Shown: positions 1 through 47,391 of the stretch, one piece after another
Layout of the letters: each line of letters starts with the position of its first letter
Numbering within the stretch: position 1 is the stretch's first letter
From: Babesia bigemina
Taxonomy: Eukaryota
Direction: 5' to 3'
Assembly: GCF_000981445.1 (NCBI RefSeq)
Contig: NC_027218.1
Coordinates: 2,604,001-2,668,000 of the forward strand
DNA length: 64,000 nucleotides
Notes under the pieces: generated by a model
What the model was told of the DNA's origin: nothing
The model's database searches: none
What the model saw: only the letters and a program-made list of their open reading frames with translations
Translations under genes and position numbers: made by a program

Positions 1-267
1 CACATCACTCAATTATGTAGTGAGAAAGGAAGAGTGATAACTTGGAAATATGTGATAACGTTTCGCCCTCATATCAGCCCTTATCAGCGTCTGCACTACT
101 TATACACGACATAGACAACAGCGGACAAAGCGGCAAAAGCAGCACAGAATTTACCACATCCTGCCATAAGCTAATGCTGTCTCTGGAGACACAAACCAAC
201 ATAACGACCAACATGTACTGACAATTAAAGTGTGCCATTGCCAAATGGGTTACCAAATCCTAGCTAC

Positions 268-3111
268 TCATTCCTTGGAGTAATAGTTCTCAATCTGTAT
301 GGTAGACAGGACGATACCCTTAACGGTCACGCAGCGGCACTCCAAGGGCGGCATTTCGCGCAGCGTTTCTCCTGGTCCCATTTGCGAACCGTCGAACCGC
401 AAAATAACGAAGTGGTTGGACTGTGACGCTACTAACGAATTGCTGATGTTGTTTAGGTTGGTCACGTCTCCGTCCACGTAAACTTGGTTGAAGCAATCCG
501 GTGGATCCAGGACGTAGGGTGCTGGGCAGTAGAATGCCGCTTCCTTAGCAGCGTGGAGGTCTATATTGCAACCGATTTCTTGTCCGTTCTCAGCGTAGAT
601 TGTGGGTGTCTCAGGCTTGAACAATCCAGCAGACTCGTATGTAACGCCGCAGCCTTGCATGTATGGGTCGGTGGTCTCCACTAGCACTTGAACAACATTC
701 CACGTGTATCCTGTCGACAGTCCCATTATATTGTTAATGGGTTGCAGCGAACGGTCTGAACTGATCGCACTACCAGCAATTTCAGTAACGTCAGATTGTT
801 CGGGTTTCTTACCGCATACGAACGTCATGGGCACGTATTGTCTTTTCATGACATCTTTTGATACCAATACAGCGCCTCTACTCAATTTAATCTTCAATTC
901 ATTGACGCCCGCAGCTGTAGGCACCGATGCGACGTTCAAGTCCCCCGGATTGCTAGCAATGGAAAAGCTATGTGGCACTCTAACGAGCTCGTCTCCGTAA
1001 GGCGTATTCTTGATGGTGTAATGAAAAAGCGTAGATTGCTTTGGAAACCAAGACGTTTGTACATCATTATCATTCCCTACGTCCTCTTCGTCTATGATTA
1101 TGTCATCAGTACCAGCACAATACAAGACCAAATATGCCCCTGCATATACTGGAATGGAACTCGATGTTACGTCGTATAGCATAAGTCGATCTCGTGAGGT
1201 GGATCCCTCACTTGATAATCCAACCTCTTGCCAAGGTAGCAACATATAAGGAAGCACCACGTTGCGTCCGTCCTTATGGCGTACTCTATAATAACGATAA
1301 TCATCATAGTATGATTCCAAAGTAAGCCTGCTTTTTTCGAACCCACGTTGGTCGACACATATGCAGGCATAGGTTACGGCTCCATCGTCTAAATCAAGCG
1401 CGAAAACCTGGAATCCTCGAATAGTGAACGGCCCTGAACTTCGCACAGAATCGGGTAATAGCGCAATTTCATTGGAATGGAGATCGTATAATTCGGATGC
1501 GCAATTACTTGGCAAAAGCTCTTCGTCGGGCCTACAGCGGATCCCAGCATCCCAAACGCCAAGTCGCGAACGTTGAATGCATTGGTACGTTTCCCCAATA
1601 CCGTTTCCCATATATTTCGCTGAGCAATGTTTGAAGCTGATAACCGGATCAAACAAACTAGGCACCTCCCGGTCGCAACCAACGATACAGTACTCATGGG
1701 TAAAGGCGAAAGAGACATTGATGATCGCGCGTATCGGACCTAAGTTATATTTGTCTGTCGGTCTCAATAACCAATGAAACAAAAATGAGTTCACCCCTCT
1801 TCTTAAGGTGAGTGGTTTGTCTGCGTGGTACTTTAGCGTTACTACTCCCTGGGGTATCTGTGAAATATCTAGTTCAAGAGCATCACCAGCTAGGGCTCTA
1901 TTATACAATACCACATCGTAAATAGAAGCCTGATAGGTGTTTATATTTTGTTGCAGAAAATCCAAGTTCTGTGGTCGGAATTCAGTTTTGAACAAATACC
2001 TCGGTGGATTCCGCAAAACCGTAACAGCTTTAGAATCCTCTACATGTTCAATTGGGAACCGTATGGTCAGTATGCTGCCGGGATGAAGTAGCACAGAACA
2101 CCACGGACCACGAATTGCTGCCGTATGGTTGCGGAAAACCTTGCTGGTTATGTCGCATACGTGTTCTTTTTTCGAACGGATCTCTATCCTTGCCTTCACG
2201 TGACCTGTCTCAGCATCTATGCACCTGCATTCGCCTTTGAATGCGGGTAACGCCAAGCCATCGAAATACTGCACTAAAACCCATGGCTTATAGGTATTAA
2301 AGTGTCGATAAGAATATGGTAGAGGATCAATTATAGATTTGTCATTTTCATCCAAGAGAGACCTAAAACAATCACTAGGTTCAAGTCGACCCTCGCAAAC
2401 AAATCCAATACGCGCATTTGACATATAATCCGCCACACATGAACGGGTGCCAGTGGAGGTATCCTCACTAACCACGTTGTCCGGTGCAAAAAGCAGTGAG
2501 GGGCGACTCCCACAGCCTTGAAGCGGGAGATATGAGAGGCCTCTGTACATGTACACCACTCCCAATCCGTATCCCAGCTTTCTTATTTCACCTGTCAACG
2601 TGCCGCCGTGATTCCACGCAAATGTTTTTTTGGGGCGAATCACATTGAGGAGGTCAAGCTCTTCTTTAAGCGTATCACTCATAACTAGGTCTCGTGGACC
2701 ACAGATGAATACCAGCCGATCATCGGTGACAACAAACAGTTGTCGAGCTAACACGTCAAAGTGCAATTCCGTTTGCGACGGGTACGATTCTATCCTGAAG
2801 AGTTCATTCTCGGCTTCAGAGCGCACTACTTCGTAAAGCGGAACAGAGCGCAGTGCACCATTGCGACTTACGTAAGTGGTGAGGTGAGCATGCTCATCCG
2901 GCGTAGGTTGAGGGTGCCAAACATATTCTATACCATTCACTTCTCGTGGACATATAATAGGACTATAAGGAAACTGATTGAAATCCGTCGAGCAGGTGAT
3001 GAGAGGATAGTATGTCAGTGTTCTGTCCGGATCATTGAAATCACATATTGCTGCACGACTATATGCGATAGTCTGTAGAATGATCGCGCAGAAAGCCAAG
3101 GGATACTTCAT
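268..3111 (-). CDS. Secreted multi-domain 6-Cys (s48/45)-like protein, 947 aa
   Basis: Intronless ORF with N-terminal signal peptide (MKYPLAFCAIILQTIAYSRA). Three repeated Cys-patterned modules (GC...C...C...P.[D/N]C...C.C), e.g. YMQGCGV...GCNID...FYCPAPYVLDPPDCF...ECRC. No obvious C-terminal hydrophobic GPI signal. Confidence 0.7.
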   Translation of the reverse strand: MKYPLAFCAIILQTIAYSRAAICDFNDPDRTLTYYPLITCSTDFNQFPYSPIICPREVNGIEYVWHPQPTPDEHAHLTTYVSRNGALRSVPLYEVVRSEAENELFRIESYPSQTELHFDVLARQLFVVTDDRLVFICGPRDLVMSDTLKEELDLLNVIRPKKTFAWNHGGTLTGEIRKLGYGLGVVYMYRGLSYLPLQGCGSRPSLLFAPDNVVSEDTSTGTRSCVADYMSNARIGFVCEGRLEPSDCFRSLLDENDKSIIDPLPYSYRHFNTYKPWVLVQYFDGLALPAFKGECRCIDAETGHVKARIEIRSKKEHVCDITSKVFRNHTAAIRGPWCSVLLHPGSILTIRFPIEHVEDSKAVTVLRNPPRYLFKTEFRPQNLDFLQQNINTYQASIYDVVLYNRALAGDALELDISQIPQGVVTLKYHADKPLTLRRGVNSFLFHWLLRPTDKYNLGPIRAIINVSFAFTHEYCIVGCDREVPSLFDPVISFKHCSAKYMGNGIGETYQCIQRSRLGVWDAGIRCRPDEELLPSNCASELYDLHSNEIALLPDSVRSSGPFTIRGFQVFALDLDDGAVTYACICVDQRGFEKSRLTLESYYDDYRYYRVRHKDGRNVVLPYMLLPWQEVGLSSEGSTSRDRLMLYDVTSSSIPVYAGAYLVLYCAGTDDIIIDEEDVGNDNDVQTSWFPKQSTLFHYTIKNTPYGDELVRVPHSFSIASNPGDLNVASVPTAAGVNELKIKLSRGAVLVSKDVMKRQYVPMTFVCGKKPEQSDVTEIAGSAISSDRSLQPINNIMGLSTGYTWNVVQVLVETTDPYMQGCGVTYESAGLFKPETPTIYAENGQEIGCNIDLHAAKEAAFYCPAPYVLDPPDCFNQVYVDGDVTNLNNISNSLVASQSNHFVILRFDGSQMGPGETLREMPPLECRCVTVKGIVLSTIQIENYYSKE

Positions 3112-3996
3112 GATGAAAAATTTCGAGTTTATGATTTTTTATCATAAGTTGGATGGCAAGTGGAACGCATAGATAAGTTATTAGCCAAAATATGCCCCAA
3201 GAATATATTCTAACGGCATAAACTAAAACAATTTGTTGTTCGCCATATGAAAGTACACACAACACCACAGCAGCAGCTAGCTGTTCTGCTGCCTAGGAAA
3301 TTTCCCCAGCAAGTCTTAAGGGGAGCAACAAGGAATATGGCCAATGAATACGAGATGGGCTTTAAAATTCCTGTTTACAAAAATATCGTTGCGACACTTT
3401 CGAGTTATAAGAGGATGTTTGAACTGCATTTATATATACGGATATTTCTCACTGGATACGTGTCTTTAATGGCCTTTTGCTATTTGGGCCAGTAGTGCTT
3501 GCGTAGTCGTTGTAGGATTTTGGCTCTCATAAGATGAATTTAGCTGCCTGCAAATGATATTAACTTCTGGGACGTTTATGCAGATTTACTTCTATAAAAT
3601 ATTTGAACCATGAACAACATTTAATTCAAATACCCATAGGAGGCACCACATACACAGACCGCACAATGAACTAACCTTGTTCACCAACTGATCGAAACGG
3701 TTTATATTGCTATTGTATTTTATGAACCCCAGCAGGCCGAGTTCGGAGTATGGAGGCATGGCGGCTCCGTGTTCAATGCGATGTTGCTTCAGCTGCGCAT
3801 CCGTAAAACCAGATGTTGGAGAGCATAACGAATACCGAGACAAGGAGGTGCTTCTGCTCTGCAGAGGAGAATCGCTATGCTCCGAAGTGGTCGAGTTGCG
3901 AGCGCTCTTCGCGTTTGACGTCGCACCTACGATGGAGGACCAGTTGGATGCGGAGCACCGCTGACAGCAATCTCACAAGACGTTCTTACGCCTTAG

Positions 3997-5070
3997 GCGT
4001 TCCTGACCGACGACTGGAACTCCACCTTCGAGACTCATCTCTTCGACCCGTGCAACCTGTGCCACAAGAGCAGAGTGATGATGGGATTCAGGATGGAGGA
4101 TTTGCCTGAGAAGTCACAAAATGGTGGCACAATTTCCAGCATCCTCTCTCCCAGCTGCGCCGGCGATGACCCCTTGTTGACCTTGTCCTCCTACCTAAAC
4201 TGCCTCACCAGGCGGACGCCGCGCACCACCGGGGAGCTTGTGTCGTACTTCCATCATTTTGGCATGGAGTTGCACAATTATGCGTCAAAGTCATTGTCTC
4301 CACTGGGCTCATCCCTCTCCACTCCACATCCCGACTGCCCCGACTGGGACCATCTCAAGAACTCGGACCTCCAAGCTGTCAGTGGCATCCGAGGCTCCGA
4401 GTCCCTCATATCCAAACACAACTCCAGCCACGACAATGACCATCCCCGTACCCTGTCCACACTGGTCGGCTGCGGTAGTGACCCTGACAACTGCCTTCCG
4501 CATTGCTCGCCCATCACCTACCGGGCATATGCCCTGTACTCCCAGACCTTCTCCCACACCTACCTCAGCTGGACGGTGTACCTGCCGGACTTACTGCGGG
4601 AGTCACTCGAAAAACTACATTATGATCTCAAGAAGCATGCTTATGCCAAGTGCCCGTCCCTCCACCTGTGTTCCACTGCCCCGCCCCTCCTCTACTTACA
4701 CGGGTTCACGCCGCCGGAGGTGGGATCGCAGCCGAAGCTCACGTGCTCTGATATCATTTCTAAGCTGAAGGAAATTGTCAACGGTGGGCCTATCGCATCA
4801 CTCATGACCGCCATGGACAATTTCCTCTACGGCATCCGGGAGCCATTCATCTTCACACTCGTGGCACTGTGGTCTCTCGCATTCCTCATCTTCGCCAACA
4901 CGATGGTATACCGCCTGGACATACTCCACATCCGATCACACCTTATCCGCACCAAGGCGTCTCACCGTCTCGACGTCAAGGCCTTACTCACGAAAGGCCG
5001 GAAGATGCTCTCACTTTACAAGGACGTCGACTATTTCGACGAGGACCCCATTGGTCAACTTGTTCTTTAA
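3997..5070 (+). pseudogene. 5'-truncated ves/VESA1-like gene (C-terminal domain, TM and tail only)
   Basis: The frame of ORF 4075-5070 extends back to AFLTDDWNSTFETHLFDPCNLCHKSRV, directly after an in-frame TAG at 3994-3996. It is highly similar to the last ~355 aa of the 21747-26711 protein, and both end KDVDYFDEDPIGQLVL. No long upstream ORF. Confidence 0.7.
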
Positions 5071-5254
5071 TAATCATTACCTCATTCATCTAGTCATTAC
5101 TTGCCGTGTGATGGATCGCACTACAGCACTAGTGGTTAGTTGTTACTGCGACCTTTACGGCACCGTGGTGAGAGAAAAGCGTGACTGCTTCCAGGCACAA
5201 CTATGCACATGTAGCCCAATTAAGAGACAACTGAATCAGGTAAGCTGAGTTGTG

Positions 5255-10297: not shown

Positions 10298-11198
10298 ATG
10301 CTTTTTCGTTTGTTGTACACCGCCGTCTTGGTTGCGCGTTGGAGCGTGTTTGCTTCGGCCGGTGCGGTCGCGCGGCCGTCCCGCGCCTTCATTTTGGCAG
10401 CAGGCCGTGATCTTCCACCCTGTACAAGGTTGAGACACCGTCAAGGAGGCGCATCATTCGGTGGCGTGGCGGTTAGGAAGGCTGAACGCCCTTTTGAAAT
10501 ACGTTCTTTGAATAGCGATACCGCCTCCATCTTGGACAGGAGTTCGAATGCGTTGTACGAGACGCTTTCCCAAGGCAGCTATGCCTCTCCCGTTGAGTGT
10601 CTGGCAGCATCGGCTGCATATGTGTTGCCTTTGATGGACGCGGTGGAGGTAGGTCGTTGCATGTAAGCTTATCATCTGCCATTAGAATTTTGGGGGGGTT
10701 GTTAAACCGCACGTTCCTCCTTTGGCGCAAGATGCTCTACAGGGTATTCACCGATTATCGCAATTCTACACACAAGTGCCTTTTCTTTCCTACACGATGT
10801 CGACACTGATCTACTCCAGCTTAGTGAAGAAGAACCAGTTGAATACGTCGTACTTTGTTCGTTACCACTTCCTCCAGGTATTTGAATAATGAGTTAACGC
10901 TAACTTTCTTCAGTCTCTAATTTTATCGTCTTTCCAAAATGCGCTTGCTATGTTTTACTTCAAGCTGCTTCCCATAGACGCCTCGTCGCAGGACTTCGTA
11001 TCCGTTGTTTGTATGATGTCCGCAGTGATGAGCTCATTTGGAGCCGTGTTCTACTGCGTTTTCCATGCGATAATTGGACGTTTCGCTGCGCTTCCCATAA
11101 TTTCGGATGCCGTGCAGCTGCACATCGGAGAGATACCCTCTAACGAGATTTTGAAGAGGCGCACCACAGATACGGATTCGGCTATTGCAATGCGCTGA
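10298..11198 (+). CDS. TIC20: Apicoplast Tic20-like inner-membrane translocon protein (3 exons)
   Basis: Signal peptide plus Arg-rich transit-like leader. Tic20/Ycf60-type motifs ECLAASAAYVLPLMDAVE, YFVRYHFLQSLIL and GRFAALPIISDAVQLHI. Two short GT-AG introns (~10649-10686, ~10878-10913) keep the frame open. Confidence 0.8.
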
Positions 11199-21746: not shown

Positions 21747-24700
21747 TTAAAGAACAAGTTGACCAATAGGGTCCTCGTCGAAGTAGTCGACGTCTTTGTA
21801 TAGTGAAAGCATCTTCCGGCCTTTCGTGAGTAAGGCCTTGACGTCGATGTGGTGGGAAGCTTTAGTGCGAATAAGGTGTGATCGGATGTGGAGCACGTCC
21901 AGACGGTATAGCATCGTGTTGGCGAAGACGAGGAATGCGAGAGACCACATCGCGACGACGGTGAAGATGAATGGCTCCCGGATGCCGTAGAGGAAGTTGT
22001 CCATGCAGGTCATGAGATCTGCGATAGGCTTGCCGGTGATCACATCCTTAAGCTCACAAATGACATCTGAACATGTGAGTGACACCTGCGATCCCACCTC
22101 CGGCGGCGTGATCCCGTGTAGGTAGAGGAGGGGCAGTGCAGTGGAACACAGGTTGAGGGCTGAACACTTGCTGCTGCCACGATGTTTTTGCAAATCGTAG
22201 TACAGCTTTTGAAGTGACTCATGCAATCTGTTCGGCAGGTACACCGTCCAGCTGAGGTAGGTGTGGGCGAAGCTCTGGGAGTACAGGGCGTAGGCCCGGT
22301 AGGTGATGGGCGAGCAATGTTGAGGGCAGCTGTCGGGGTCACTGCCGCAGCCTACCAGTGTGGACAGGGTATGGGGATGGTCTTTGTCGTGGTTGTGATT
22401 GGAGATGGAGTTGAGGGACTCGGCGCCTCGGATGCGACGGACAGCGTCCAAGTCGTGGCGACCAAGATGGTCCCAGTCAGGGTAGTCGGCATGTGACTTG
22501 GTGATGGCAGTGCCTAGTGAGGAAAGTGCTTTCTGATCATAATTGTGCAACTCGATGCCGAAATTATGGAAGAAGGAAAGAAGCTCCCCGGTGGTGCGCG
22601 GCGTCCGCCTGGTGAGGCAGTTGAGGTAGGACGACAATGTGAGCAAGGGGTCACTGCCGCCGCAGCTGGGAGTGAGGATGGAGGAAATGGTGTTGCCAGT
22701 TTGTGAATCATTAGGCAAATCATCCTTCTTGAATCCCATCCTCACCCTGCTCTTGTGGCAGAGGTTGCACGGGTCGAAGAGGTGCGTCTTGAAGTCGCAG
22801 TCCCAGCTGTCAGTCAGGAAGGACTGGAGGGGGGACTTGGAAGCAGTGATGTCGCTGCCGTACTCATCATTTTTCCAACCACCACTTAGTTTATTCCGAT
22901 TACACTGCGACTTCAGGAATTGCAACTGGTGGTGGCAGGCGTACACGTAGTCACGCAGCTGACAGAGGAGACAGGCGGGGTCGGGGGAATAATGAAACTT
23001 ACTATATACTGATTCAAAGTCGGTGGGAGACCAGGCGTTTTTGGAATTCATACGCATTATGCCATTGAGTACGTGTGCTGAGTAGAGACAAGCCTCGGTA
23101 AGGGTGTCGGCGATATGAGATGCGGACAAGGAGGATAGATCCCCGTTGACCTGGAGGGCATACTTAGGGTAGAATGTATCGCCGTTGATTTCATTGAGTA
23201 TATTTTCCATGTGCCTCTCCATTTTGGCAATAAGTCCGTACGCATTGAGACCGACCAGCCAGAAGAGCATGGCCTTGACGTTGGTGGGAGGCGGTAGATG
23301 GTCGGAGTATGGTAAAGGGGGGAGGGTTGATGAGGTGGCAGAATCATAGACGTAATTCCATGGATTGTTGCACATGTTGGGGTTAGGATCCATAGTAAAT
23401 CCGTAATTCTTAAAAACACCTAAATAGTTGGAATGATCGGTGTCTGAATTAGGATCCATGTTTGGAATTGCATAATCTGGCAAGGCAGGTTCTATTGAAT
23501 TTGATGGCGTCTGAGAATTACCTAATTCTTTAAATCCGTATATAATTCTGGAATAATGCGGTTTTTCGATTTCTAAATGGATTGTTGGATGCGGAGGCAT
23601 CGCAGTGTCAAAACCGCCATTGGGCATCGGTAACAGCTGGTTGGATTTCGGAATGGGTGCTCCAGTGACCATTGGTAATGTCGATACCGTCGAATGATCA
23701 GGTGATTCCAGGAGATTAAAGGCAGTCTTGGAAAAAAGTGGTACACCAGTTACGGCTTCGGCAGCCTCTCGTTGTCTTCGGTATTCTACTTCTTTAAAGT
23801 AATTTATGGCATCAAGGGTTCTTTTTATCTCTTGTTGATGCTCTTCCTGTGAGTTATTAATTTTTTCATTTTGTTCTTGATAATGTTGTTCCCACTGCTT
23901 CTGCTTATCCCGCTGTATATTCGTAGCTTGGTCGTACGCCTGTAATTGCACATATCGCTCATGTTCATGTTTACTGGGAGACTCATGCTTAATCTCTTCA
24001 CCATCGAGGTAGTCAACACCAACAACGGGTTCACCGTCGAAACCTGTAGTTATTAATTTTTGTCTTTCTTCCTCTTCTAGAAGGGTTTTAATCTCCTGTA
24101 ACACTTTATTTTCCGAATTTTTCACTTCCTCAACTGATTTTAGGATGTCGTTGGCCTGCATATTGACGTATGCCTGGTGATCTACCTTTTCTTTGATAAG
24201 TTGTCTTTCATCATGAGCTTGAAGTCTGGTTTGCCTATTTTTTTCTTCTTCGTCGAACGACGTATCCGGAATTGCAACACCATCCATTGTCACATCAAAC
24301 GGATCTGAAATGGCATAACCGTCAAGACTATTCAACGGATTGTATCCTCTAGAGATATCATAATCCGCATATGTTGCAGGGTGATTCCCCTTTCCACTCC
24401 ACCTAGGTCGCTGAGGAGTTTGAGGTAATACACCAGGATGATGGCTGTTAGGTTGAAGCGAAAGACCAGGGGAATTAAGACCGCTCGCATTTTGAAGTGC
24501 GGAATGATCTTGCGTTTGTATATTTGGCAGTGTCGGTTGTCCAAATGTTTCTCGTATGTTTTTTTCTTGTACATCCTGCCATATATTATGCAGCTTTTCA
24601 TTTAATGATTGTATCTTTTCTTCCATGTTTTTAGCAGCTTTGTCGTTTCGTTCAGCTTGTTTCTTAAATATATGTGCATTGTTTTTCAACAATTGTCCGT

Positions 24701-26711
24701 AATGTTCCAAAAGTTGTTGTTGGGGAGATAATGTTTTTACCTTTTCTACACCCCCTCCAGCTCCACCGCCACTTTGACCAACACCCAGAGCCGAATCGGC
24801 AATAGCAGATACAGCAGAACTGTCACCTGCACCTGGATGCGTACCTTGAACGCTTCGTTGAGCAGCGCCAGAAGCACCCGCCTGCCCACCCAGGCCCTTA
24901 TCACTACTGGAACCAGGGACACCAGTTGACTGAGGGCCTGGAGATTGAGCAGTTGGAGGTTGATGAGACGCAGGGACTTGAGCGCCAGCAAGCTGTTGAC
25001 TTGTAAGACTACCGCCATTTGTACCTTTACTCGTATCACCTTGCTGACCAGCGCCAGAAAGGCCCTGACCACCATTGTTACCAGATCCACCAGATGACGC
25101 AGTGCCTGGTGATGGAGCACCTGGAGTCTGAGGATGCCCAGTTGATGAAGATCCACCAACCTTTAGACCCGCACCACCACCGCCATTTGCACTCCCACCC
25201 CCGCCACTGGGCTGACTAGGGGAGGCAGGGGCTGCAGGAGTAATGGGAGGAGGGGCGTGAGGTGAGGTCACAGGCGAATCTAGAGATGCAGTCTGTTGGG
25301 ATTTAACAGTTGGTTTCCCTGGTGAAGCGGCAGGCTCTGGAGACACTGAACCACCAGGCCCTTTCTTGCCTCGATCACCTTGAGACCCTGGCGCTCCTGC
25401 ACTACCGGTAGGCGGAGATGAAGATGTGCCGACAGATGAAGTTCCAGGTTTTGCTCCACTTTGACTAGTATTTTGATTTGTACTTCCTCCAGCATTCTTA
25501 GCTTGGGGCTTCGTAACCTCAGTTTTGGTGGCCACGGGCTTTGCAGCCTCCGTTTTAGTGGCTTCGGTTTTGGTGACAAGGGGTTGACATGAGTTTCTGT
25601 ATGTTCCATCCAAAATATCTTTAAGCTTTCCCAGCAGTCCATCTAGCTGGCGGAACATTTGAAGTATTCGATCCCATTTATTTAAATTCGGAGGCTTGTG
25701 CCACACGTTCCATTTGCTCCCGTCAAAAATGAACCCATGGGTATAGAGGTGATCCTTGGCAAATGATCGAAGTGTAGATATATCAGCAGTATGAGGTATC
25801 ATGTCTTTCAATACGTTTGCAGCAGCCGGCAAATTCCCACTAAACCACTTCGCGGCCTCAGTAGCTAATTTAACATGCTCTTTAGGTATGCTAGCTCTAC
25901 CCGTAAAAGAAAATCCTGCTCCCGTCAGCGTATCGATGTGTTCTTTCAGAAGTTGACAATGACTTTTTAAATCTTGCCAACATATTGTGCGTCCAAGTCC
26001 CTTCTCTAACGCCGTTTTAAACGCCCCGCCGTCAAGTTCCGTCCTCTTGGTAACCAACTGGCAAAATGTGTACACCAGAAGTACAGTGTTCCCAGTGTTG
26101 AAGGTATTCCACTCTTTTCCCAAAGTTGTCAATATAACATTTCGAAAATGATCATGCACTCCCTTTCCTCTACCATCACGCTCCTTATTCAAAATTTTTT
26201 TTAAATCCTCTACTAGTCTGCTACCCTGTACATTATTAAGCTCTCCGGCACTGAATCCTCCGGCAAGAATGTTATTCCTATTAGTCAAAAACGTTTGAAA
26301 ATCTCCGGACTTGATGGACTTTGTAGCCCATCCCCCACCTCCAACATTGCTAAACGCTTCGTCCACGTGGTACTGTATGAAAGAAAGCGCAGCAAGCAAC
26401 TTAGGAGTGCATTCTAAAAGAGCTTCGAGAATATGCTTTCGATCACGTGTTGTTACTTTATAAGTGCCCAGCATCGTAACTTCCGCAGATAATGTTTTAT
26501 ATAGCAGCGAGACATTTGCAAGAAATTTAAAAAATTCCTTTTGCAATGGGCCTTTAAGTCCGGACATTTGCGGAAAATAAGGCGTCAATCTTTGAACAAA
26601 CTCAGTTACCACATCTTTCTTTGGACCTCCACCGTTATTCAACCACTCAAAGAACTCAAAGCAGTGCTTAAGAGTGGTGAGCCGAATTTTCGCCATCCTT
26701 TCCACTTCCAA
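21747..26711 (-). CDS. ves/VESA1-like variant erythrocyte surface antigen, 1654 aa
   Basis: ves-type N-terminus (LTTLKHCFEFFEWL..GGGGW), central G/S/P/Q low-complexity and Q/E/K coiled-coil region, and a conserved Cys-containing C-terminal domain. TM FIFTVVAMWSLAFLVF with tail YRLDVLHIRSHL..SHHIDVKALL. No signal peptide. Confidence 0.85.
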   Translation of the reverse strand: MEVERMAKIRLTTLKHCFEFFEWLNNGGGPKKDVVTEFVQRLTPYFPQMSGLKGPLQKEFFKFLANVSLLYKTLSAEVTMLGTYKVTTRDRKHILEALLECTPKLLAALSFIQYHVDEAFSNVGGGGWATKSIKSGDFQTFLTNRNNILAGGFSAGELNNVQGSRLVEDLKKILNKERDGRGKGVHDHFRNVILTTLGKEWNTFNTGNTVLLVYTFCQLVTKRTELDGGAFKTALEKGLGRTICWQDLKSHCQLLKEHIDTLTGAGFSFTGRASIPKEHVKLATEAAKWFSGNLPAAANVLKDMIPHTADISTLRSFAKDHLYTHGFIFDGSKWNVWHKPPNLNKWDRILQMFRQLDGLLGKLKDILDGTYRNSCQPLVTKTEATKTEAAKPVATKTEVTKPQAKNAGGSTNQNTSQSGAKPGTSSVGTSSSPPTGSAGAPGSQGDRGKKGPGGSVSPEPAASPGKPTVKSQQTASLDSPVTSPHAPPPITPAAPASPSQPSGGGGSANGGGGAGLKVGGSSSTGHPQTPGAPSPGTASSGGSGNNGGQGLSGAGQQGDTSKGTNGGSLTSQQLAGAQVPASHQPPTAQSPGPQSTGVPGSSSDKGLGGQAGASGAAQRSVQGTHPGAGDSSAVSAIADSALGVGQSGGGAGGGVEKVKTLSPQQQLLEHYGQLLKNNAHIFKKQAERNDKAAKNMEEKIQSLNEKLHNIWQDVQEKNIRETFGQPTLPNIQTQDHSALQNASGLNSPGLSLQPNSHHPGVLPQTPQRPRWSGKGNHPATYADYDISRGYNPLNSLDGYAISDPFDVTMDGVAIPDTSFDEEEKNRQTRLQAHDERQLIKEKVDHQAYVNMQANDILKSVEEVKNSENKVLQEIKTLLEEEERQKLITTGFDGEPVVGVDYLDGEEIKHESPSKHEHERYVQLQAYDQATNIQRDKQKQWEQHYQEQNEKINNSQEEHQQEIKRTLDAINYFKEVEYRRQREAAEAVTGVPLFSKTAFNLLESPDHSTVSTLPMVTGAPIPKSNQLLPMPNGGFDTAMPPHPTIHLEIEKPHYSRIIYGFKELGNSQTPSNSIEPALPDYAIPNMDPNSDTDHSNYLGVFKNYGFTMDPNPNMCNNPWNYVYDSATSSTLPPLPYSDHLPPPTNVKAMLFWLVGLNAYGLIAKMERHMENILNEINGDTFYPKYALQVNGDLSSLSASHIADTLTEACLYSAHVLNGIMRMNSKNAWSPTDFESVYSKFHYSPDPACLLCQLRDYVYACHHQLQFLKSQCNRNKLSGGWKNDEYGSDITASKSPLQSFLTDSWDCDFKTHLFDPCNLCHKSRVRMGFKKDDLPNDSQTGNTISSILTPSCGGSDPLLTLSSYLNCLTRRTPRTTGELLSFFHNFGIELHNYDQKALSSLGTAITKSHADYPDWDHLGRHDLDAVRRIRGAESLNSISNHNHDKDHPHTLSTLVGCGSDPDSCPQHCSPITYRAYALYSQSFAHTYLSWTVYLPNRLHESLQKLYYDLQKHRGSSKCSALNLCSTALPLLYLHGITPPEVGSQVSLTCSDVICELKDVITGKPIADLMTCMDNFLYGIREPFIFTVVAMWSLAFLVFANTMLYRLDVLHIRSHLIRTKASHHIDVKALLTKGRKMLSLYKDVDYFDEDPIGQLVL

Positions 26712-28082
26712 TGATTCAATAAGCTAATTCTACAGAACAGCAAAGTTGGCATTCAGATTATGTTGACCAGGACACAGCAAGGGGGTCAGAGCTCTGTCGC
26801 TATTCCCCTTACTAAACACCCTATCCAATCCATTTAGTGCACTAGGTGAAAAGGCTACAAAGCGCCAAGCTGAGTGGCAGAGGTATGTCACGGCGCAAAA
26901 GCCTAACACGACAAGCGTGGAACCGCAGCCAATCACTTGTCCACTCCGCCCTCGTAGACAACATGACAGACTGAAACGATACCACCATCCCACCTACCTG
27001 AGAAGGGAAGGCAGCACGTCTATGTATTTGGCAAGATTGTATCGTGACTGGCATGAACGGCTGGAGCACGGAGCACTCCATGAGGGTTCCGGGCGGAATA
27101 TAGGATGCCTACCCTCACCCCGCATTGTCACGCCTCTGCAGCGTCTCACATCGGCGTTTTGCGAACATTAGGGCACCCACAATGCAGCGTGCCTCTGTCG
27201 CCCGGATAGACACCAGTGCCTCATTTTAGCATCACCCCAATGGCCACTTGAGATTGCGGACATTACCCCACTTTGCCCTGGCCAAACGAGGTGCATATTA
27301 TATATTGCTGCATCAATCGATGCACGAAGTTTTTGCATTCCAATGCTACATCTGTTCGTAATATTGTCACAGCGACAACGTCGCCCACTATACCCCCTCA
27401 CTCACAGTCCAGCAGCATTGCACCATAATACAGATGACGTTGCCAACTTCAGCTAAGGACTTAGCTCACTCACTAAGTAGACAATCCATTGGCAGTAGTC
27501 CCATTATTAAGACATTCGTGATGTTTAGACTAAATCACTATTGCTGCTAACTCTTCACATGCCGACCACATTGCTCTCACCCCGTATTGAGCTGAGGGGC
27601 ATAGAGAGTGTTTCACTGGCTTTCGCCACTCACCCCATTTTCCAAATCTTGGTCATCGTCATCTGATTCTGAGCTTCTCACTATGAAGCATTGTCTGATA
27701 TCCTCCTACCATGCCATCAGGCCGTGAGCTAGTGGCTTAGTCCGATGGTGCCGAGGATCCAACGCTTTGAAATTGTTGGAATGCCTCACTGCGACGTTAC
27801 ATATCATTTGATTATGCGCATCGTATATACAATGATCGGGTAACGATACCTTTTTAGGATATTCCTCCGGTTGGCTGACCTGGCTAGGCAGTTACTGCCG
27901 GTAATTGCTAAAGAAAATTGGACTACCGAAACCCATATCTAGACTTCACCAAGTGTTCATTGTTATGTGTAAGTTACGTTGCCGATGTTTCAGTTTGTGA
28001 GCAATTGAGCTAGCCACTGTATCCCATCTTCTCACTTTAGAAGTGCAAAATGTAGAGCAAATGCGTAACGGTACGTAAATAG

Positions 28083-41013: not shown

Positions 41014-42211
41014 TGCTTGCCTACCAACTTTCGGTCTAATGCAGATTTGGCTTTTACGGCCATATATTGTCTCGTTTACTCAGAGTACTGTCGTAACTTG
41101 AGGGTCAAACGATGTTTCCCCGCATGTTGTAACGTCACCACGTACCGGCGTCTACGTGCCTGTTGGCGGCAGTGCCATTTGATGACGGCGACGTGCATGG
41201 TTGTGGGCGCATGGTTCTGGATAACAGTAGGCGTCACGTAGTGAATGTACTGGGCGGCATAATGCGCCAACTGCTACCCAGATCCTTCATAGCTGAGGTT
41301 CCAAGTGTCTATGTCTCAGGAAACCGATCATACTGCACACACCCAGCCACTTGGACGTCATATGTGCGTTAGGTGACTAATGACGTCTAGTAGTGACATT
41401 TCAGATGCGCTGCGACCAATAAAACACCAGGGTGTGTGTGTAAACGTACAAACGCAGATAACACATGTGGTCATGCACCGCAAACAGGGTATGCACTAAA
41501 TATATGTTTGGTATAGTAATGATATTCAACAGAATGTACACATCAGATAGTTCCGGGGATTTTGCTTCAACATCGGCTTATTAGCAGCGTAACTTGCGTC
41601 TGTGTCCATGTTTGTAACGAGACCTTGTGCCATCTACTCTGCCTTCTTAAATAGCTGCGACACTCCTTCAATACACTGGGCATAATTGCATCGTAAAACA
41701 CTCACAACCAACTCTACTTCCAATCGGTATCCCGAAACCAAACTCTATGACGCATATTACGGTGACCGGGATGATAATGGAGCATATTAAGCCAAAAACG
41801 CAAGAAACCAGCTTCTTGGTGGCGCTCATCTTAGCAACTCTAACTGGCTTGTACTATAAGCTATGTGTAAGTAAAATATGAATAACTTAGAGACACTAAC
41901 TTGGTGGTTAGCGTATCCCGGACGTATTAACTAGTCGTCTAGTGATTCCAGTAGGCCTGGTTGATAAAATTTTTTATTACAAACACACGTCTACAGCTGA
42001 CTACTGTGATGTCTCTGTGGCCTGTTTAGTGGGACTAGTGCGGCAACTGGGACAGCAGGTGGCACTACTGTCGCGAATGAGCGCAGAATTTTCCCTGCTG
42101 CTATGGCACCGGCTGCTCAAGCTTCCAGGGCACATTTCTCTATTCACAGGCTACTCTGACACGCTTTTGCATCATTTGTGTACAATTTATAGCATCTAGA
42201 CAGCTAGGTGT

Positions 42212-45200
42212 CTATGAAGCCGGCATGAGTTCGTCTAGCATTCTGAGGCTCTTGGCCAGCGCTTCGTCGGAGCACGGTATCAACATGATCACTTTTCTGA
42301 GTTCCTCACGATTTTTGATGTGAGGCAGCTCCTTCTTGACCGTCTGAAGTTCGTCCGGAGGCGCGAATGCGATCGCCCGGATGAACTTGGACATCTCGGT
42401 GTCAGCAGCATACACGCCATCTCTGGTCAATAGCCGTTGCCGGACGTTATTCAGCGCGGCTGCGCCAATTTCCTCGCCAACTATGATCCTGGCCTCGCGC
42501 AATTCTTCCGGCGTCAAGGTGAGAACGCGTCTGGACAGGTTGACTATCCCTTGCAGGGAGTCAAAGTTCTCCTCCCCTCCTTCGAAGTGTAGTGCGAAGA
42601 AGTCCTCCAGAGGGTACGTGAATACCCTTGTTTCCGCCTTGTCCTCTCCGAGGTTGATGCAATCGTTGATGATATTGATGAACCAGTGTATGCGTCTGGA
42701 CCTCTCAAACGGTATGAACTTGTTGAAGTCCTGGCCCCGGAGTATGGTGACCAGTTTCTTCATAGCTTCAAGTCCGCTTTCCGGGTCATACCACTCACGT
42801 ATGCGGATGCCTACATGCGTTTTGTATATCTCCTCCACCTCCTTTGGGCCCAGCTCGTATGCCCTGTGCAGGTGCTCGACTTCGTTGAGTGATTCCAGGC
42901 AGAGTTCCTCGTTGCTGAACTTCTGCAGGAACCTGTGATAAAACTTCCTGCCTAGTCGGTTGAGCACTTCCCTCCTCGTATCCTTGATGAGTCCGTATAC
43001 GGCGCACTGCTCGTCCAGTTTTTCCTGGTCCACCTTGCCATGCACGTCTACATGCGATATAATGAAGGCCCCCATGATTTCCTCCATGATGGCGCTGTTT
43101 TGGGCCCTGATTGAGAAGCGCATCCTGCGTTTTCCGTCTGCCATGTACATCACCCCTAGCCTCTTGAATTCGTCGATTATGAATTCACACATGTCCAGGA
43201 ACTGCCGACCTGGTGTGCGTTTCATCATCAATTTGTTCGCCTCCACTATGAGGTAGTCGTACTCGGTCTTACGGAGTATCATGTCGAACGGCGTTTCCTG
43301 TATGAGCAGTTCCTTGGCTAGCGGCATCAGCTCCTCCTCTACGGCCTTCGGCCAGTCCTGCGGCGAACGCTTCATCACGGCTCCGCAATGCAGGTCGAGC
43401 GCATGCTGCGAACAATGCCAAACACATATCTAACCACTTACCGAGAAGCATTTGGTATGTATTTCCGCGATCTTTTGCGGCGTGAGCTTGAAGAACGCTT
43501 GTATCTTTTTTATGTTCTCCAATTCCAGCTCGGACGGCACCTTCGACGAGTACAGATACGTTATCCTATTGTACACTGATGGGTCGAAAGGATTGAAATA
43601 GTGGTCCTCGACGTCACCGATGTCATCCTCGATGTGTTCCACGTAAGCTCCGGTACGCTTCAGCAGATCTTCTTCGTAGGCAACGGCGCATACATTCTGG
43701 GCCATCTCCTCGTCGCAGTCCAATTCCCGGCACCAATCGACGTTCGACCCCAAGCTGCACAGGATATGACGTTACGCAACGGCACGCATTGCTTACCTGT
43801 CCTTCTGCCTCAGCCGCTGTCTTGCGTATAGTCGACGCCAGTGCTCATCACTCTTCTCCACTAGCCTGCACACGATGTAGTGAACGCGTATTCCACCTAC
43901 TTCTTCAAAAACGGGAAGATTGTCAGCACAGTCTTGATGTCTTCTTCATTTACGGCTCTCTTGCGGTAGCAATACACCACCCAACATGCGTAGGCCAACC
44001 GGCTGTCAATTATAGGGCGGTCAAGGGCGTGCGGGTCCTCGGGAAACTTGTAGTCGGGTTCATATTCCAATTCCTTGGGCCTTTCTCCAATGTGAAACTC
44101 GTTCGGTACGCATTCCAGCCGGGGGTCGAGTTCTCCCCTCTCGACCATCCTCGAGAGCTCCATCTGCAGCGGAATGGGCGTCAAGCTATCCTCGCCTGTA
44201 ATTTTTAGAGGTTCCACGTTTTTCAAGTCGGCCTCCCATTCTTCCTCGAGCTGTTTCCACTCCGACTTTTGGGGCGGTGGGTCGAGCATCTCCCAGTCGG
44301 CGTTCTCAATTTTGGCCACTTCCCCCGTACCCAGGATTTGGTGCCTGCCAAGTTTATAGTCAATGTACTGAAGGTTGTGCCTGAAAGCGCGCTCAAGCCT
44401 GTACCACAGCTTGCAGTCGATGGTGTCCGCAGCTGCATTTACTACGGCATTCCTGCCCCGCAGCAGCGAACTCATGTATTTTTCGACGAGGTTCCAATTA
44501 AGTTTGTTCCTGGCATTAATCATTTCCTTTTTGGCCTCTGACGCCGTTTTCTTGATAACGTCGCATATAGCGTTTACAAAAACTAGGTCTCTGCACCTAT
44601 AGCGCTGCATTATCTCCCTTATCTGGTCTGGCGTCACCGCAGTGAGGTCCCACGTCGCCAGTTCGTCTTTGAGGTCCTGGTACATGGCCACACTGCACGC
44701 ATCGAGCGTCACTTGCTCGGATATATTGGCCACCCTCGCCATCTCCAGCACCTCATCGTGGTTCAGTGCTTTGTTCTCGTGCAATTTCTGGGTGAGGTAA
44801 AACATCGCTTCGTTTTTGATTTCCTCAGTATGCTTTTTCGCTATATGGAACCCCTGTATCATTTCCTCCAGGTTACCGGTCTGGTTTCGGATCTCAGCAG
44901 CAATGAATTCCACGCATTGCTGCTTGAGGAACTGGGTATACTTCGGCAGCAGCCACTCCTCTCTGACGTGCAACGCCATGGAGAGCGCTTTGAGCATCTC
45001 CAATTTGTACCCAACCTTATGGGCCAAATCGGTTACTGCGTCCCTGGCTTGCTGCAGCTCAATTTGCATCCGGAGGTGTTTCTCTTCATCACTTTCGCCG
45101 AGGAACTCGTTGTGAGTGTCCACGCCGTATTCCCTCTCCAGCGTTATCCTTTTGAACTTGCCGCCGATCTGGTCGAGTTCCCTTGCGAACTTTTCAATGT

Positions 45201-47391
45201 CGTCAAGTGTCGACGTCGCCATGGGCTCGTCCTTGAGGTTGTCCCACGCATCATCTGACACGTCGAACTCCTTGAGAGCCCTTACGAATTCCTTGTACTT
45301 GTCGATCTCTTCGTCCGACTTCCGTTTGAAATTCTGGATACCACCGAACGCCTGCAGAACGAACGTTGTGAACAGCATGGCAGTGCGCTCGAATTTCGCC
45401 ACGTCAGGCATAGGTATCCCCAATTCTTTGCACCCTTCTTCGTACAGGTCCGTATAGTCATCATCTGAAAACTCCGGATCACCTGAGATTTGCCTGCCCA
45501 GAACTTCGTCCCCCTCAGCGCACGGCAGGTCGTTCGATGTGGCGAGGTCGCACGCTGCAAAGTATATCACTCGGTATACGGATGCGCCACATATCGGCAA
45601 GCATATTTCTGCAACCCGTCCTAATTGCTTAGCCAGCAGGTTCCATGTCTTTATACCTTTCCCTTCCCTGGCCAACCGCATCGCCCTGCTGAACGCTGTG
45701 AGCGTGCAGTGTATGGTGAACTTTTCCAACCCCTTCACGACATCGTCCTTCGGAACCAGCCCGCTGTACGCTGCGTTGATTACGGCTCGCGGGTCCTCGA
45801 ATGCGTTGTCAACAAGGTTTTTGAGGGCCACGTTGAACAAGTCTCCCTTCACCGTCATGTCCCTCGACAACCCAGCTAGAGTGGCGCCTGCCAGAGCAAC
45901 AGAGCACGCCTTGGGACCAACGATGCCGTGCACCAAATTCTGCGCAGCGATCCCGCCTACCAGTCCGGCGACACCACCAATTGCGCTCGCCAGCAGCCCG
46001 CCGAAAGCGGCGCCGGTAGCACAGCTTATCGCCGGCACCCCGATGAACCTGTAGTAGAAGTTTGGCGGCATGAGGTTCATGCCGGGCCCGTACTCCTCCC
46101 TCATGAGGTCTGGCAGCGAATCTGCCGGCACCGCCTTGTCTTCCGGGTACCATACGTTGTATATATCCAGAAAACTTTGATCATCAACCGGCCACTTGAG
46201 GTCCGGATACGTGTTCACGAAGTGTTTGTATGCCTCTCCCTGTGCCCTTTTGAGGTTTTCTGAGTCCATGTACAAGTCTTGGTCTGTGTGTTCGCGGTCG
46301 GGGTGGAGGTCGATGAACAGGATCGGCGGTTTGTATATGCGGTGTATGATCGTCAATATCCGTCTGGCGTTTTCCGGGTTCCGTTTCGCCAAATCGGCAA
46401 CGTGGTCGTAATACGGCAACCCTAAATAGCCCCTCAGCGCGTTCTCAGTTAGTGGCGTGATCTCCATATTGGGGTCTTTGAGCTCTATGCCAAATGGCCA
46501 CTTGCTCTTTACGTTACCTTCCTTCTTCCCTCGGATATACTGCATCAGTTTTCTCAGCCCCAGAGCCTCCACCAGAGTTTGTATGAACGATTTCGGCTTC
46601 TGCCGCATATTAAACATCTCCCTGAGCATGGCGGATGCAAGTTCATGTTTGATGGTTGGAGGTGGCTCTAATCCCAGCCTTTTGCAAATCTCTATGTCGT
46701 CATCGGTCGTTTCCTTTTCCTCCAGAATCTTGTCTACAAGCTGCATCATGCAGTCCCTTGCGTTGGGTTTGCGTCCCCAGTACCTGAGCAACACGTCACT
46801 GAGCGGGTGCGCCTCATCTTCGTCCTCTTTCGCATCGTCGGGGTACACTCGGTCGAGCATATCCCTAATTCGTTCAAGTTCGTCTGGCGGCAAATCTATG
46901 GGTTTTGGTTTTTCGAGGAAAGGGTTCTCAAAATGATCCTTTGCTTGCAGACGACTATTGGTACGTCCACCCCAGGCACCTGTGCTAGATTTGTCGGTGG
47001 CGGCACGTTTTCGCGCCATGTGTTGTTCCACTCGAGGCTCCACATTCATGTGACCCACAAACGTAGCCTCATGATTGCTGCTTCGCATTTTGCGCCTACC
47101 GGCTGACTGTGCTCTGTGCGATACTCCGGGGCGAATATCTCCGCATGCCACCTCACTGCGATTCCGCCGCAGTGTCCCTGAGGTCTGATAAGTGCCCGAA
47201 GTATTACATGTTGTGTTCACCAGGCAACCGAGACTCCGTTGAAGTCGCGGCGCAGCCTTGTTTATCGAGCTCAGCGCACCATCAGTCACATGTCGATGCT
47301 TCACATGCGTTTTGTGAAGAGCTTCCGCCGGAAACAGTGCTGCGATACAGACCGAGCACAGTATCACACATACTGTGATGTGCCCAGTCAT
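42212..47391 (-). CDS. Large probably apicoplast-targeted membrane protein, Tic110-like architecture, 1688 aa (exons 47391-43901, 43865-43797, 43754-43442, 43405-42212)
   Basis: Three GT-AG introns (35, 42, 36 nt) join the ORFs in frame. Signal peptide plus long basic, acid-poor leader, a Gly/Ala-rich hydrophobic hairpin at ~aa 450-510, then a long predicted alpha-helical region. Gene model confident; family assignment tentative. Confidence 0.8.

What the first reader, a model, noticed from the sequence alone, without database searches (positions are those of the whole stretch)
42212..47391. Candidate apicoplast Tic110-like translocon scaffold
Seen: the spliced 1688-aa protein has a bipartite-looking leader (signal peptide plus ~120 basic residues). 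It then has a Gly/Ala-rich hydrophobic hairpin (IGVPAISCATGAAFGGLLASAIGGVAGLVGGIAAQ...ACSVALAGATLAGL) followed by ALKNLVDNAFEDPRAV. After that come >1100 aa of helical sequence with recurring 'L...(F/Y/L).L...(E/K)...(I/A)' units (IQAFFKLTPQKIAEIH, LHRAYELGPKEVEEIY, LSRRVLTLTPEELREAR, FHIAKKHTEEIK). Known: plastid Tic110 has two N-proximal TM helices followed by a large stromal helical-repeat domain, and to my knowledge Tic110 is generally described as not identified in apicomplexans. Inference: this may be a highly diverged Tic110 with an N-terminal extension. A Tic20-like gene lies in the same window.
Basis: partly seen in the sequence, partly recalled or inferred. Interest (0 to 1): 0.85.

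Follow-up and report, generated by a model that had tools for sequence, protein, structure and literature searches.

The report
Likely hidden Tic110 in piroplasm parasites
This Babesia gene, shared by Babesia and Theileria species, likely encodes a very diverged Tic110, a plastid protein-import scaffold that reviews describe as missing from apicomplexan parasites, so the apicoplast import machine may be less reduced than thought.

The parts
43901..47391 (-). Exon 1 (aa 1-1164)
   Evidence: colinear with orthologues
43866..43900 (-). Intron 1, 35 nt, GT-AG
   Evidence: joint in a contig of run X1
43797..43865 (-). Exon 2
   Evidence: matches orthologues
43755..43796 (-). Intron 2, 42 nt, GT-AG
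   Evidence: joint in X1
43442..43754 (-). Exon 3; start of the C-terminal helical repeats
43406..43441 (-). Intron 3, 36 nt, GT-AG
   Evidence: joint in X1 and X2
42212..43405 (-). Exon 4 (aa 1292-1688 and stop); holds both stretches that match Tic110
47317..47391 (-). Predicted signal peptide (aa 1-25)
   Evidence: hydropathy; present in 9 of 13 distinct family genes examined
46942..47316 (-). Basic, poorly conserved leader (aa 26-150), predicted apicoplast transit peptide
   Evidence: 22 K/R against 7 D/E; unaligned across orthologues
46057..46884 (-). Conserved helical N-terminal extension (aa 170-445), no known homologue
   Evidence: conserved from B. microti to Theileria; helical in the model; no credible Pfam hit
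45856..46053 (-). Hydrophobic helix hairpin (aa 447-512), predicted membrane anchor like Tic110 TM1-TM2
   Evidence: weaker in T. parva and T. orientalis
43903..45855 (-). Middle helical body (aa 513-1163) with a coil-rich, lower-confidence stretch near aa 1010-1130; homology to Tic110 not shown
42824..43186 (-). Main match to C. merolae Tic110 (aa 1365-1485 against 4BM5 chain residues 33-159), includes the position of the L-x-x-L-x-x-x-L-G motif
42359..42553 (-). Second, colinear but individually non-significant match to Tic110 (aa 1576-1640 against chain residues 232-295)

Best explanation
The gene encodes a likely piroplasmid Tic110: a protein predicted to be imported into the apicoplast, likely anchored in the innermost membrane by a helix hairpin, with a long helical-repeat rod that would face the stroma and act as the scaffold that catches incoming transit peptides and recruits chaperone motors. 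Shown: gene model, family-wide conservation in piroplasmids, leader composition, and sequence homology of the C-terminal ~330 aa to red-algal Tic110. Predicted: all-helical rod and hairpin. Inferred from plant and red-algal Tic110 (PMC3823011): apicoplast location, topology with both flanks of the hairpin in the stroma, hand-over from the Tic20 channel, binding of ClpC/Hsp93-type chaperones. The ~275-aa N-terminal extension would be an added stromal module of unknown partner.
For: C-terminal profile A8 (7 sequences, 492 positions): 4bm5_A is the only hit at E<=10 among 177,635 PDB sequences, E=0.005, bias 0.3 in each stretch, two colinear stretches. They start 323 and 112 aa from the window protein's C-terminus against 315 and 116 aa in CmTic110. 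Two full-length broad profiles also list 4bm5_A (E 0.38, 3 hits in all; E 0.17, 5 hits in all). The match includes chain residues 33-66, upstream of the stretch (67-175) that the bacterial repeat profile matches, which fits descent from plastid Tic110 better than a generic repeat. ESM Atlas with the B. bovis C-terminal protein: the three best feature hits are clusters whose only listed family is PF16940 (cosine 0.79-0.80; 17-52% of members carry it) and the first structure row is 'Protein TIC110' (TM 0.35); lead level only. A8 scores 7 of 10 bacterial PF16940-matching proteins above the best of 1,010 shuffled or reversed controls (3.0-10.7 bits against 2.5), and profile-profile E is 0.0014-0.007 at two separate repeat pairs against 0.32 for reversed controls. 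Architecture leader - hairpin - helical rod matches PMC3823011. Tic110 is present in chrompodellids and basal apicomplexans (PMC7617431 Data S1), so retention in piroplasmids needs no new origin.
Confidence: 0.75

Rival explanations
1. A Tic110-derived apicoplast protein with a changed job: the C-terminal rod descends from Tic110, but the new N-terminal and middle parts, or a fusion, have moved it to another role such as membrane organisation or proteostasis, outside the import channel.
For: Homology is shown only for the last third; aa 170-1163 match nothing. The family is 500-900 aa longer than Chromera Tic110 (1174 aa, PMC3971594) and evolves fast (B. microti 19% identical to B. bovis). Plant work places Tic110 outside the 1-MDa Tic20 complex (PMC3823011).
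Against: The order leader - hairpin - helical rod - Tic110-type C-terminus and the stromal length (about 1175 aa against about 946 in CmTic110) are those of a whole Tic110; one family member per piroplasmid species was found.
Confidence: 0.12
2. A helical-repeat protein related to Tic110 only through the widespread Tic110/TerB-type repeat that also occurs in bacteria, not an orthologue of plastid Tic110.
For: Bacterial proteins carry the same repeat and hit 4BM5 far more strongly (E 3.6e-13) without being translocon parts; Atlas structure rows include bacterial PF16940/TerB clusters.
Against: The piroplasmid match extends into a non-repeat linker that the bacterial profile does not cover and keeps C-terminal register; A8 found 0 of 401 sampled bacterial genomes at E<=0.001 although 10 of them hold the repeat; the bipartite-type leader points to the plastid.
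Confidence: 0.07
3. An unrelated secreted or organellar helical protein specific to piroplasmids; the Tic110 match is chance among helical repeats.
Against: Tic110 was named before the search, and no other of 177,635 sequences, many of them helical repeats, scored at E<=10; the Atlas independently returned Tic110 clusters first; the register from the C-terminus agrees within 8 residues.
Confidence: 0.06

Closest known systems
Cyanidioschyzon merolae Tic110 (CmTic110C, PDB 4BM5; PMC3823011)
   Same: C-terminal helical-repeat domain homologous by profile (E=0.005, same register); N-terminal targeting leader, two-helix hydrophobic anchor, long all-helical soluble part.
   Different: 1688 against 1218 aa; ~275-aa conserved domain between leader and hairpin; signal peptide in front (secondary plastid); L-x-x-L-x-x-x-L-G motif degenerate; middle part not alignable with the tools at hand.
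Tic110 of chrompodellids and basal apicomplexans (Chromera, Vitrella, Piridium, Rhytidocystis, Selenidium; PMC7617431 Data S1, PMC3971594)
   Same: Expected closest orthologues by lineage. The Selenidium label carries the range 1-5079, which would be 1693 codons, close to 1688 aa (my reading of a tree label).
   Different: Not compared directly: these sequences could not be fetched. They were found by ordinary homology searches, the piroplasmid family was not.
Pfam PF16940 (Tic110) and bacterial proteins with Tic110-type repeats, often with a dodecin-like part
   Same: Two repeat pairs of the C-terminal domain match the bacterial repeat profile above controls.
   Different: No member reaches any PF16940 hit in hmmscan; the bacterial proteins are 170-410 aa; no dodecin-like part was found in the piroplasmid family.
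Apicoplast Tic20, Tic22, Toc75 (PMC6115763)
   Same: Same predicted pathway, inner two apicoplast membranes.
   Different: Unrelated in sequence; no interaction was tested.

Membership tests
Tic110 | Sequence homology of the C-terminal stromal domain to a bona fide Tic110 | tested here: met
   Only PDB hit, E=0.005, two colinear stretches; supported
Tic110 | N-terminal plastid-targeting leader | tested here: met
   By composition only: signal stretch plus basic leader; signal stretch in 9 of 13 genes, basic leader in 8 of those 9. No targeting predictor or experiment
Tic110 | Two N-proximal transmembrane helices (TM1-TM2) | tested here: inconclusive
   Hydrophobic helix pair at aa 447-512 in Babesia, pLDDT 54-74; ~300 aa behind the leader; weak in T. 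parva and T. orientalis
Tic110 | Large all-helical, HEAT-like repeat rod after the anchor | tested here: met
   Predicted models, pLDDT 85 (B. bovis C-terminal 511 aa) and 74.5 (window aa 170-1163), almost all helix
Tic110 | Specific fold match to the solved CmTic110C structure | tested here: inconclusive
Tic110 | L-x-x-L-x-x-x-L-G motif in the C-terminal half | tested here: inconclusive
   Aligned position keeps L and G; strict form there in 1 of 12 proteins (T. orientalis), degenerate in the window protein at aa 1421-1430
Tic110 | Homology of the region between hairpin and C-terminal domain | tested here: inconclusive
   Best E 0.025-0.1 against proxies; no eukaryotic full-length Tic110 sequence was available
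Tic110 | Restricted to plastid-bearing lineages (absent from Cryptosporidium) | tested here: inconclusive
   Only piroplasmids found, but the search barely reached B. microti (E 6.4e-5), so absences elsewhere mean nothing
Tic110 | Inner-membrane location; binds transit peptides and ClpC/Hsp93 | not testable with these tools
   Needs tagging, fractionation and pull-down
Pfam PF16940 model (as an annotation class) | Score above the 27-bit cut-off | tested here: not met
   No hit listed for any member or fragment; not filed under the Pfam family

The most novel reading that the evidence does not exclude
Tic110 was never lost from the medically important apicomplexans: it survives as a long, fast-evolving 'hypothetical protein' with an added N-terminal domain, and Plasmodium and Toxoplasma have equally hidden orthologues that the piroplasmid profile can bridge to. 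The apicoplast would then import proteins with a Tic20 channel plus a Tic110-ClpC scaffold-motor like other red-lineage plastids.
Probability: 0.45. Interest if true: 0.85.

Novelty: new variant of a known kind. Interest (0 to 1): 0.72.

Why it matters
Two reviews state that apicomplexans have no identified Tic110 (PMC6115763), and one uses that absence as an argument in the debate over which protein is the TIC channel (PMC10063809). A Tic110 in Babesia and Theileria would remove that argument for at least one core apicomplexan order, name a missing component that links the apicoplast import channel to a stromal chaperone, and give a concrete gene to tag and knock down (B. bovis BBOV_III004330, T. 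parva TpMuguga_02g00233, B. microti BmR1_04g08426). It also gives a stepping-stone profile for finding the Plasmodium and Toxoplasma counterparts. Tic110 is essential in plants (PMC3823011), so it would be a candidate essential apicoplast gene.

Tried and rejected
Pfam scans of the window exons, fragments and orthologues: no Tic110, nothing above any cut-off that is credible. phmmer of exon 1, exon 4 and B. microti, and the Babesia-only profile, against PDB sequences: 4BM5 not listed. Word-index searches returned Babesia only (6 of 7,990 and 7 of 7,989 candidates). One search covered only proteins of 3860-5000 aa and is uninformative. ESM Atlas with B. ovata aa 310-1561: no usable hit. Foldseek against PDB: no match at E<=0.001 for either model, 4bm5 not among the rows shown. 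Internal repeat search by sub-profiles: no cross-hits. P0014 (Omnitrophota, 4544 aa, E 2.5e-11 from 15 summed stretches of a tandem repeat) was dropped as a repeat artefact and left out of all alignments. Sin3 PAH match of the N-terminal extension (E 0.06-0.08) not accepted. Source names 'ABC transporter', 'arginine N-methyltransferase 6-like' and 'enoyl-CoA hydratase' rejected: no such domain in Pfam scans (the B. caballi protein was not scanned). Tic20 neighbourhood rejected as evidence: 31 kb apart in a gene-dense eukaryote chromosome. No run on record as RNA was listed as a holder. A8 against 401 bacterial genomes: none. No complex prediction was run. No genome is held for this window, so paralogues in this genome were not searched.
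Full report
The observation. The window is piroplasm DNA: the protein is 89% identical to a Babesia ovata protein, so the source is a close Babesia (B. bigemina is my inference). The gene lies on the minus strand in four exons (47391-43901, 43865-43797, 43754-43442, 43405-42212) with GT-AG introns of 35, 42 and 36 nt and gives 1688 aa. One assembled contig of run X1 joins across all three introns, and X2 across the third (RNA status is a guess by the tool). The claimed repeats are too diverged to find each other.

The family. Word-index searches gave Babesia only. A full HMMER pass of a Babesia profile (hairpin to near the C-terminus) over 1.84 billion representatives gave 8 hits at E<=0.001: 7 piroplasmid, 1 bacterial tandem-repeat artefact that I dropped. 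Cluster look-up names them as B. sp. Xinjiang, B. bovis BBOV_III004330, B. duncani, T. equi, T. parva TpMuguga_02g00233, T. orientalis and B. microti BmR1_04g08426, all hypothetical or uncharacterised. The family therefore spans the piroplasmids. It evolves fast: B. microti is 19% identical to B. bovis and was reached at only E 6.4e-5, so the lack of Plasmodium, Toxoplasma or Cryptosporidium hits says nothing. A hydrophobic N-terminal stretch is present in 9 of 13 distinct genes; the four without it are probably 5'-truncated models (inference).

The sequence test. Single sequences and the Babesia-only profile do not find 4BM5 among PDB sequences. Once Theileria and B. microti are added, it appears: E 0.38 (3 hits in all) and 0.17 (5 hits in all) with full-length profiles, and E 0.005 as the only hit at E<=10 among 177,635 sequences with the C-terminal profile. 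The two stretches are colinear, profile 166-286 against chain 33-159 and 381-445 against 232-295 (the second scores only 0.5 bits alone). In the window protein they begin at aa 1365 and 1576, that is 323 and 112 aa from the end, against 315 and 116 in CmTic110. The first stretch contains the position of the Tic110 L-x-x-L-x-x-x-L-G motif named in PMC3823011; it is strict there in T. orientalis only, of 12 proteins. This was the fourth profile tried, but the target had been named in advance.

Independent lines. The ESM Atlas, given P0025, returned Tic110 clusters as its three best feature hits (0.79-0.80; PF16940 in 52, 17 and 28% of members) and 'Protein TIC110' as first structure row (TM 0.35); by the tool's own scale these are leads. 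To get a second reference I searched 401 bacterial genomes with PF16940; 10 matched. Their profile hits 4BM5 at E 3.6e-13 over chain residues 67-175, a positive control for the repeat. The piroplasmid C-terminal profile scores 7 of these 10 proteins above the best of 1,010 shuffled or reversed controls, and two separate repeat pairs align profile to profile at E 0.0014-0.007 against 0.32 for reversed controls. So the C-terminal domain is built of Tic110-type repeats. Because the piroplasmid match also covers chain residues 33-66, outside the bacterial match, and keeps C-terminal register, descent from plastid Tic110 is the better reading. The same comparisons give nothing significant for aa 170-1163 (best E 0.025), and Pfam PF16940 never hits a family member.

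How it most likely works. Signal peptide and basic leader would take it through the secretory route into the apicoplast (inferred from the standard bipartite scheme, own knowledge and PMC9847631 passages). The hairpin would anchor it in the innermost membrane with the N-terminal extension and the ~1175-aa rod both in the stroma. By analogy with plant and red-algal Tic110 (PMC3823011), the rod would bind transit peptides leaving the Tic20 channel and recruit ClpC/Hsp93-type chaperones; the apicoplast genome encodes ClpC (PMC3064897 passage). None of these functional steps was tested. The hairpin is convincing in Babesia but weak in T. parva and T. orientalis. The Tic20-like gene in the window is real but 31 kb away and adds nothing.

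What is known. PMC6115763 (passages) says no Tic110 homologues are identified in apicomplexans; PMC10063809 (passages) says it is absent from apicoplasts. PMC3971594 (passages) reports a 1174-aa Chromera Tic110 and very low conservation. PMC7617431 (passages; supplement search; Data S1 parts 14-15, machine-read tree labels) has Vitrella, Piridium, Chromera, two Rhytidocystis and Selenidium in its Tic110 tree, but no Babesia, Theileria, Plasmodium or Toxoplasma although those proteomes are in its data table. So Tic110 is known from basal apicomplexans and, in what I could read, not from piroplasmids. Searches: (listings; six gene ids, 0 papers in main text), passages of PMC13369866, PMC5823475, PMC13673260, PMC9847631 and supplements of PMC9847631 and PMC6733595 gave no such report. 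Subscription journals, bioRxiv supplements and VEuPathDB comments were not visible and could hold one. PMC3823011 was read as parts 1-3 of 6. The scan's own index had no matching note.

Verdict. Real gene; C-terminal homology to Tic110 about 0.9; working Tic110 of the apicoplast inner membrane 0.75. It is a new, extended variant of a known protein in a group where it was thought missing. Interest 0.72, higher if Plasmodium and Toxoplasma prove to have it.

Noticed in passing
window 10298-11198 (+): Three-exon, 275-aa gene with a signal-like start and a weak Pfam TIC20 match in exon 3 (E 0.009-0.019, below cut-off); likely the Babesia Tic20.
   Followed up: partly
window 41668-41829 (-), intron 41861-41900: Small hydrophobic 53-codon ORF downstream of the gene; a 40-nt minus-strand intron upstream of it is joined in contigs of all three runs laid. 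Identity not determined.
   Followed up: no
window 21747-26723 (-): 1658-codon open frame with no Pfam hit at E<=0.01.
   Followed up: no
window 268-3138 (-): 956-codon frame with s48/45 (6-Cys) domain matches.
   Followed up: no
L121-L130: 10 of 401 genomes drawn from the phylum of G001 (reached through a Gemmatimonadaceae locus) encode proteins with Tic110-type repeats; their joint profile also matches dodecins and hits red-algal Tic110 at E 3.6e-13. A possible lead to the bacterial relatives of Tic110.
   Followed up: partly
P0003, P0007, P0009 (orthologues): Public names (ABC transporter, arginine N-methyltransferase 6-like, enoyl-CoA hydratase) look wrong; the B. caballi model runs about 540 aa past the family's end, probably a gene-model error.
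   Followed up: partly
window 46057-46884 (-): The conserved N-terminal extension gives a weak match to the Sin3 PAH domain (E 0.06-0.08); probably chance, but the domain has no other lead.
   Followed up: no
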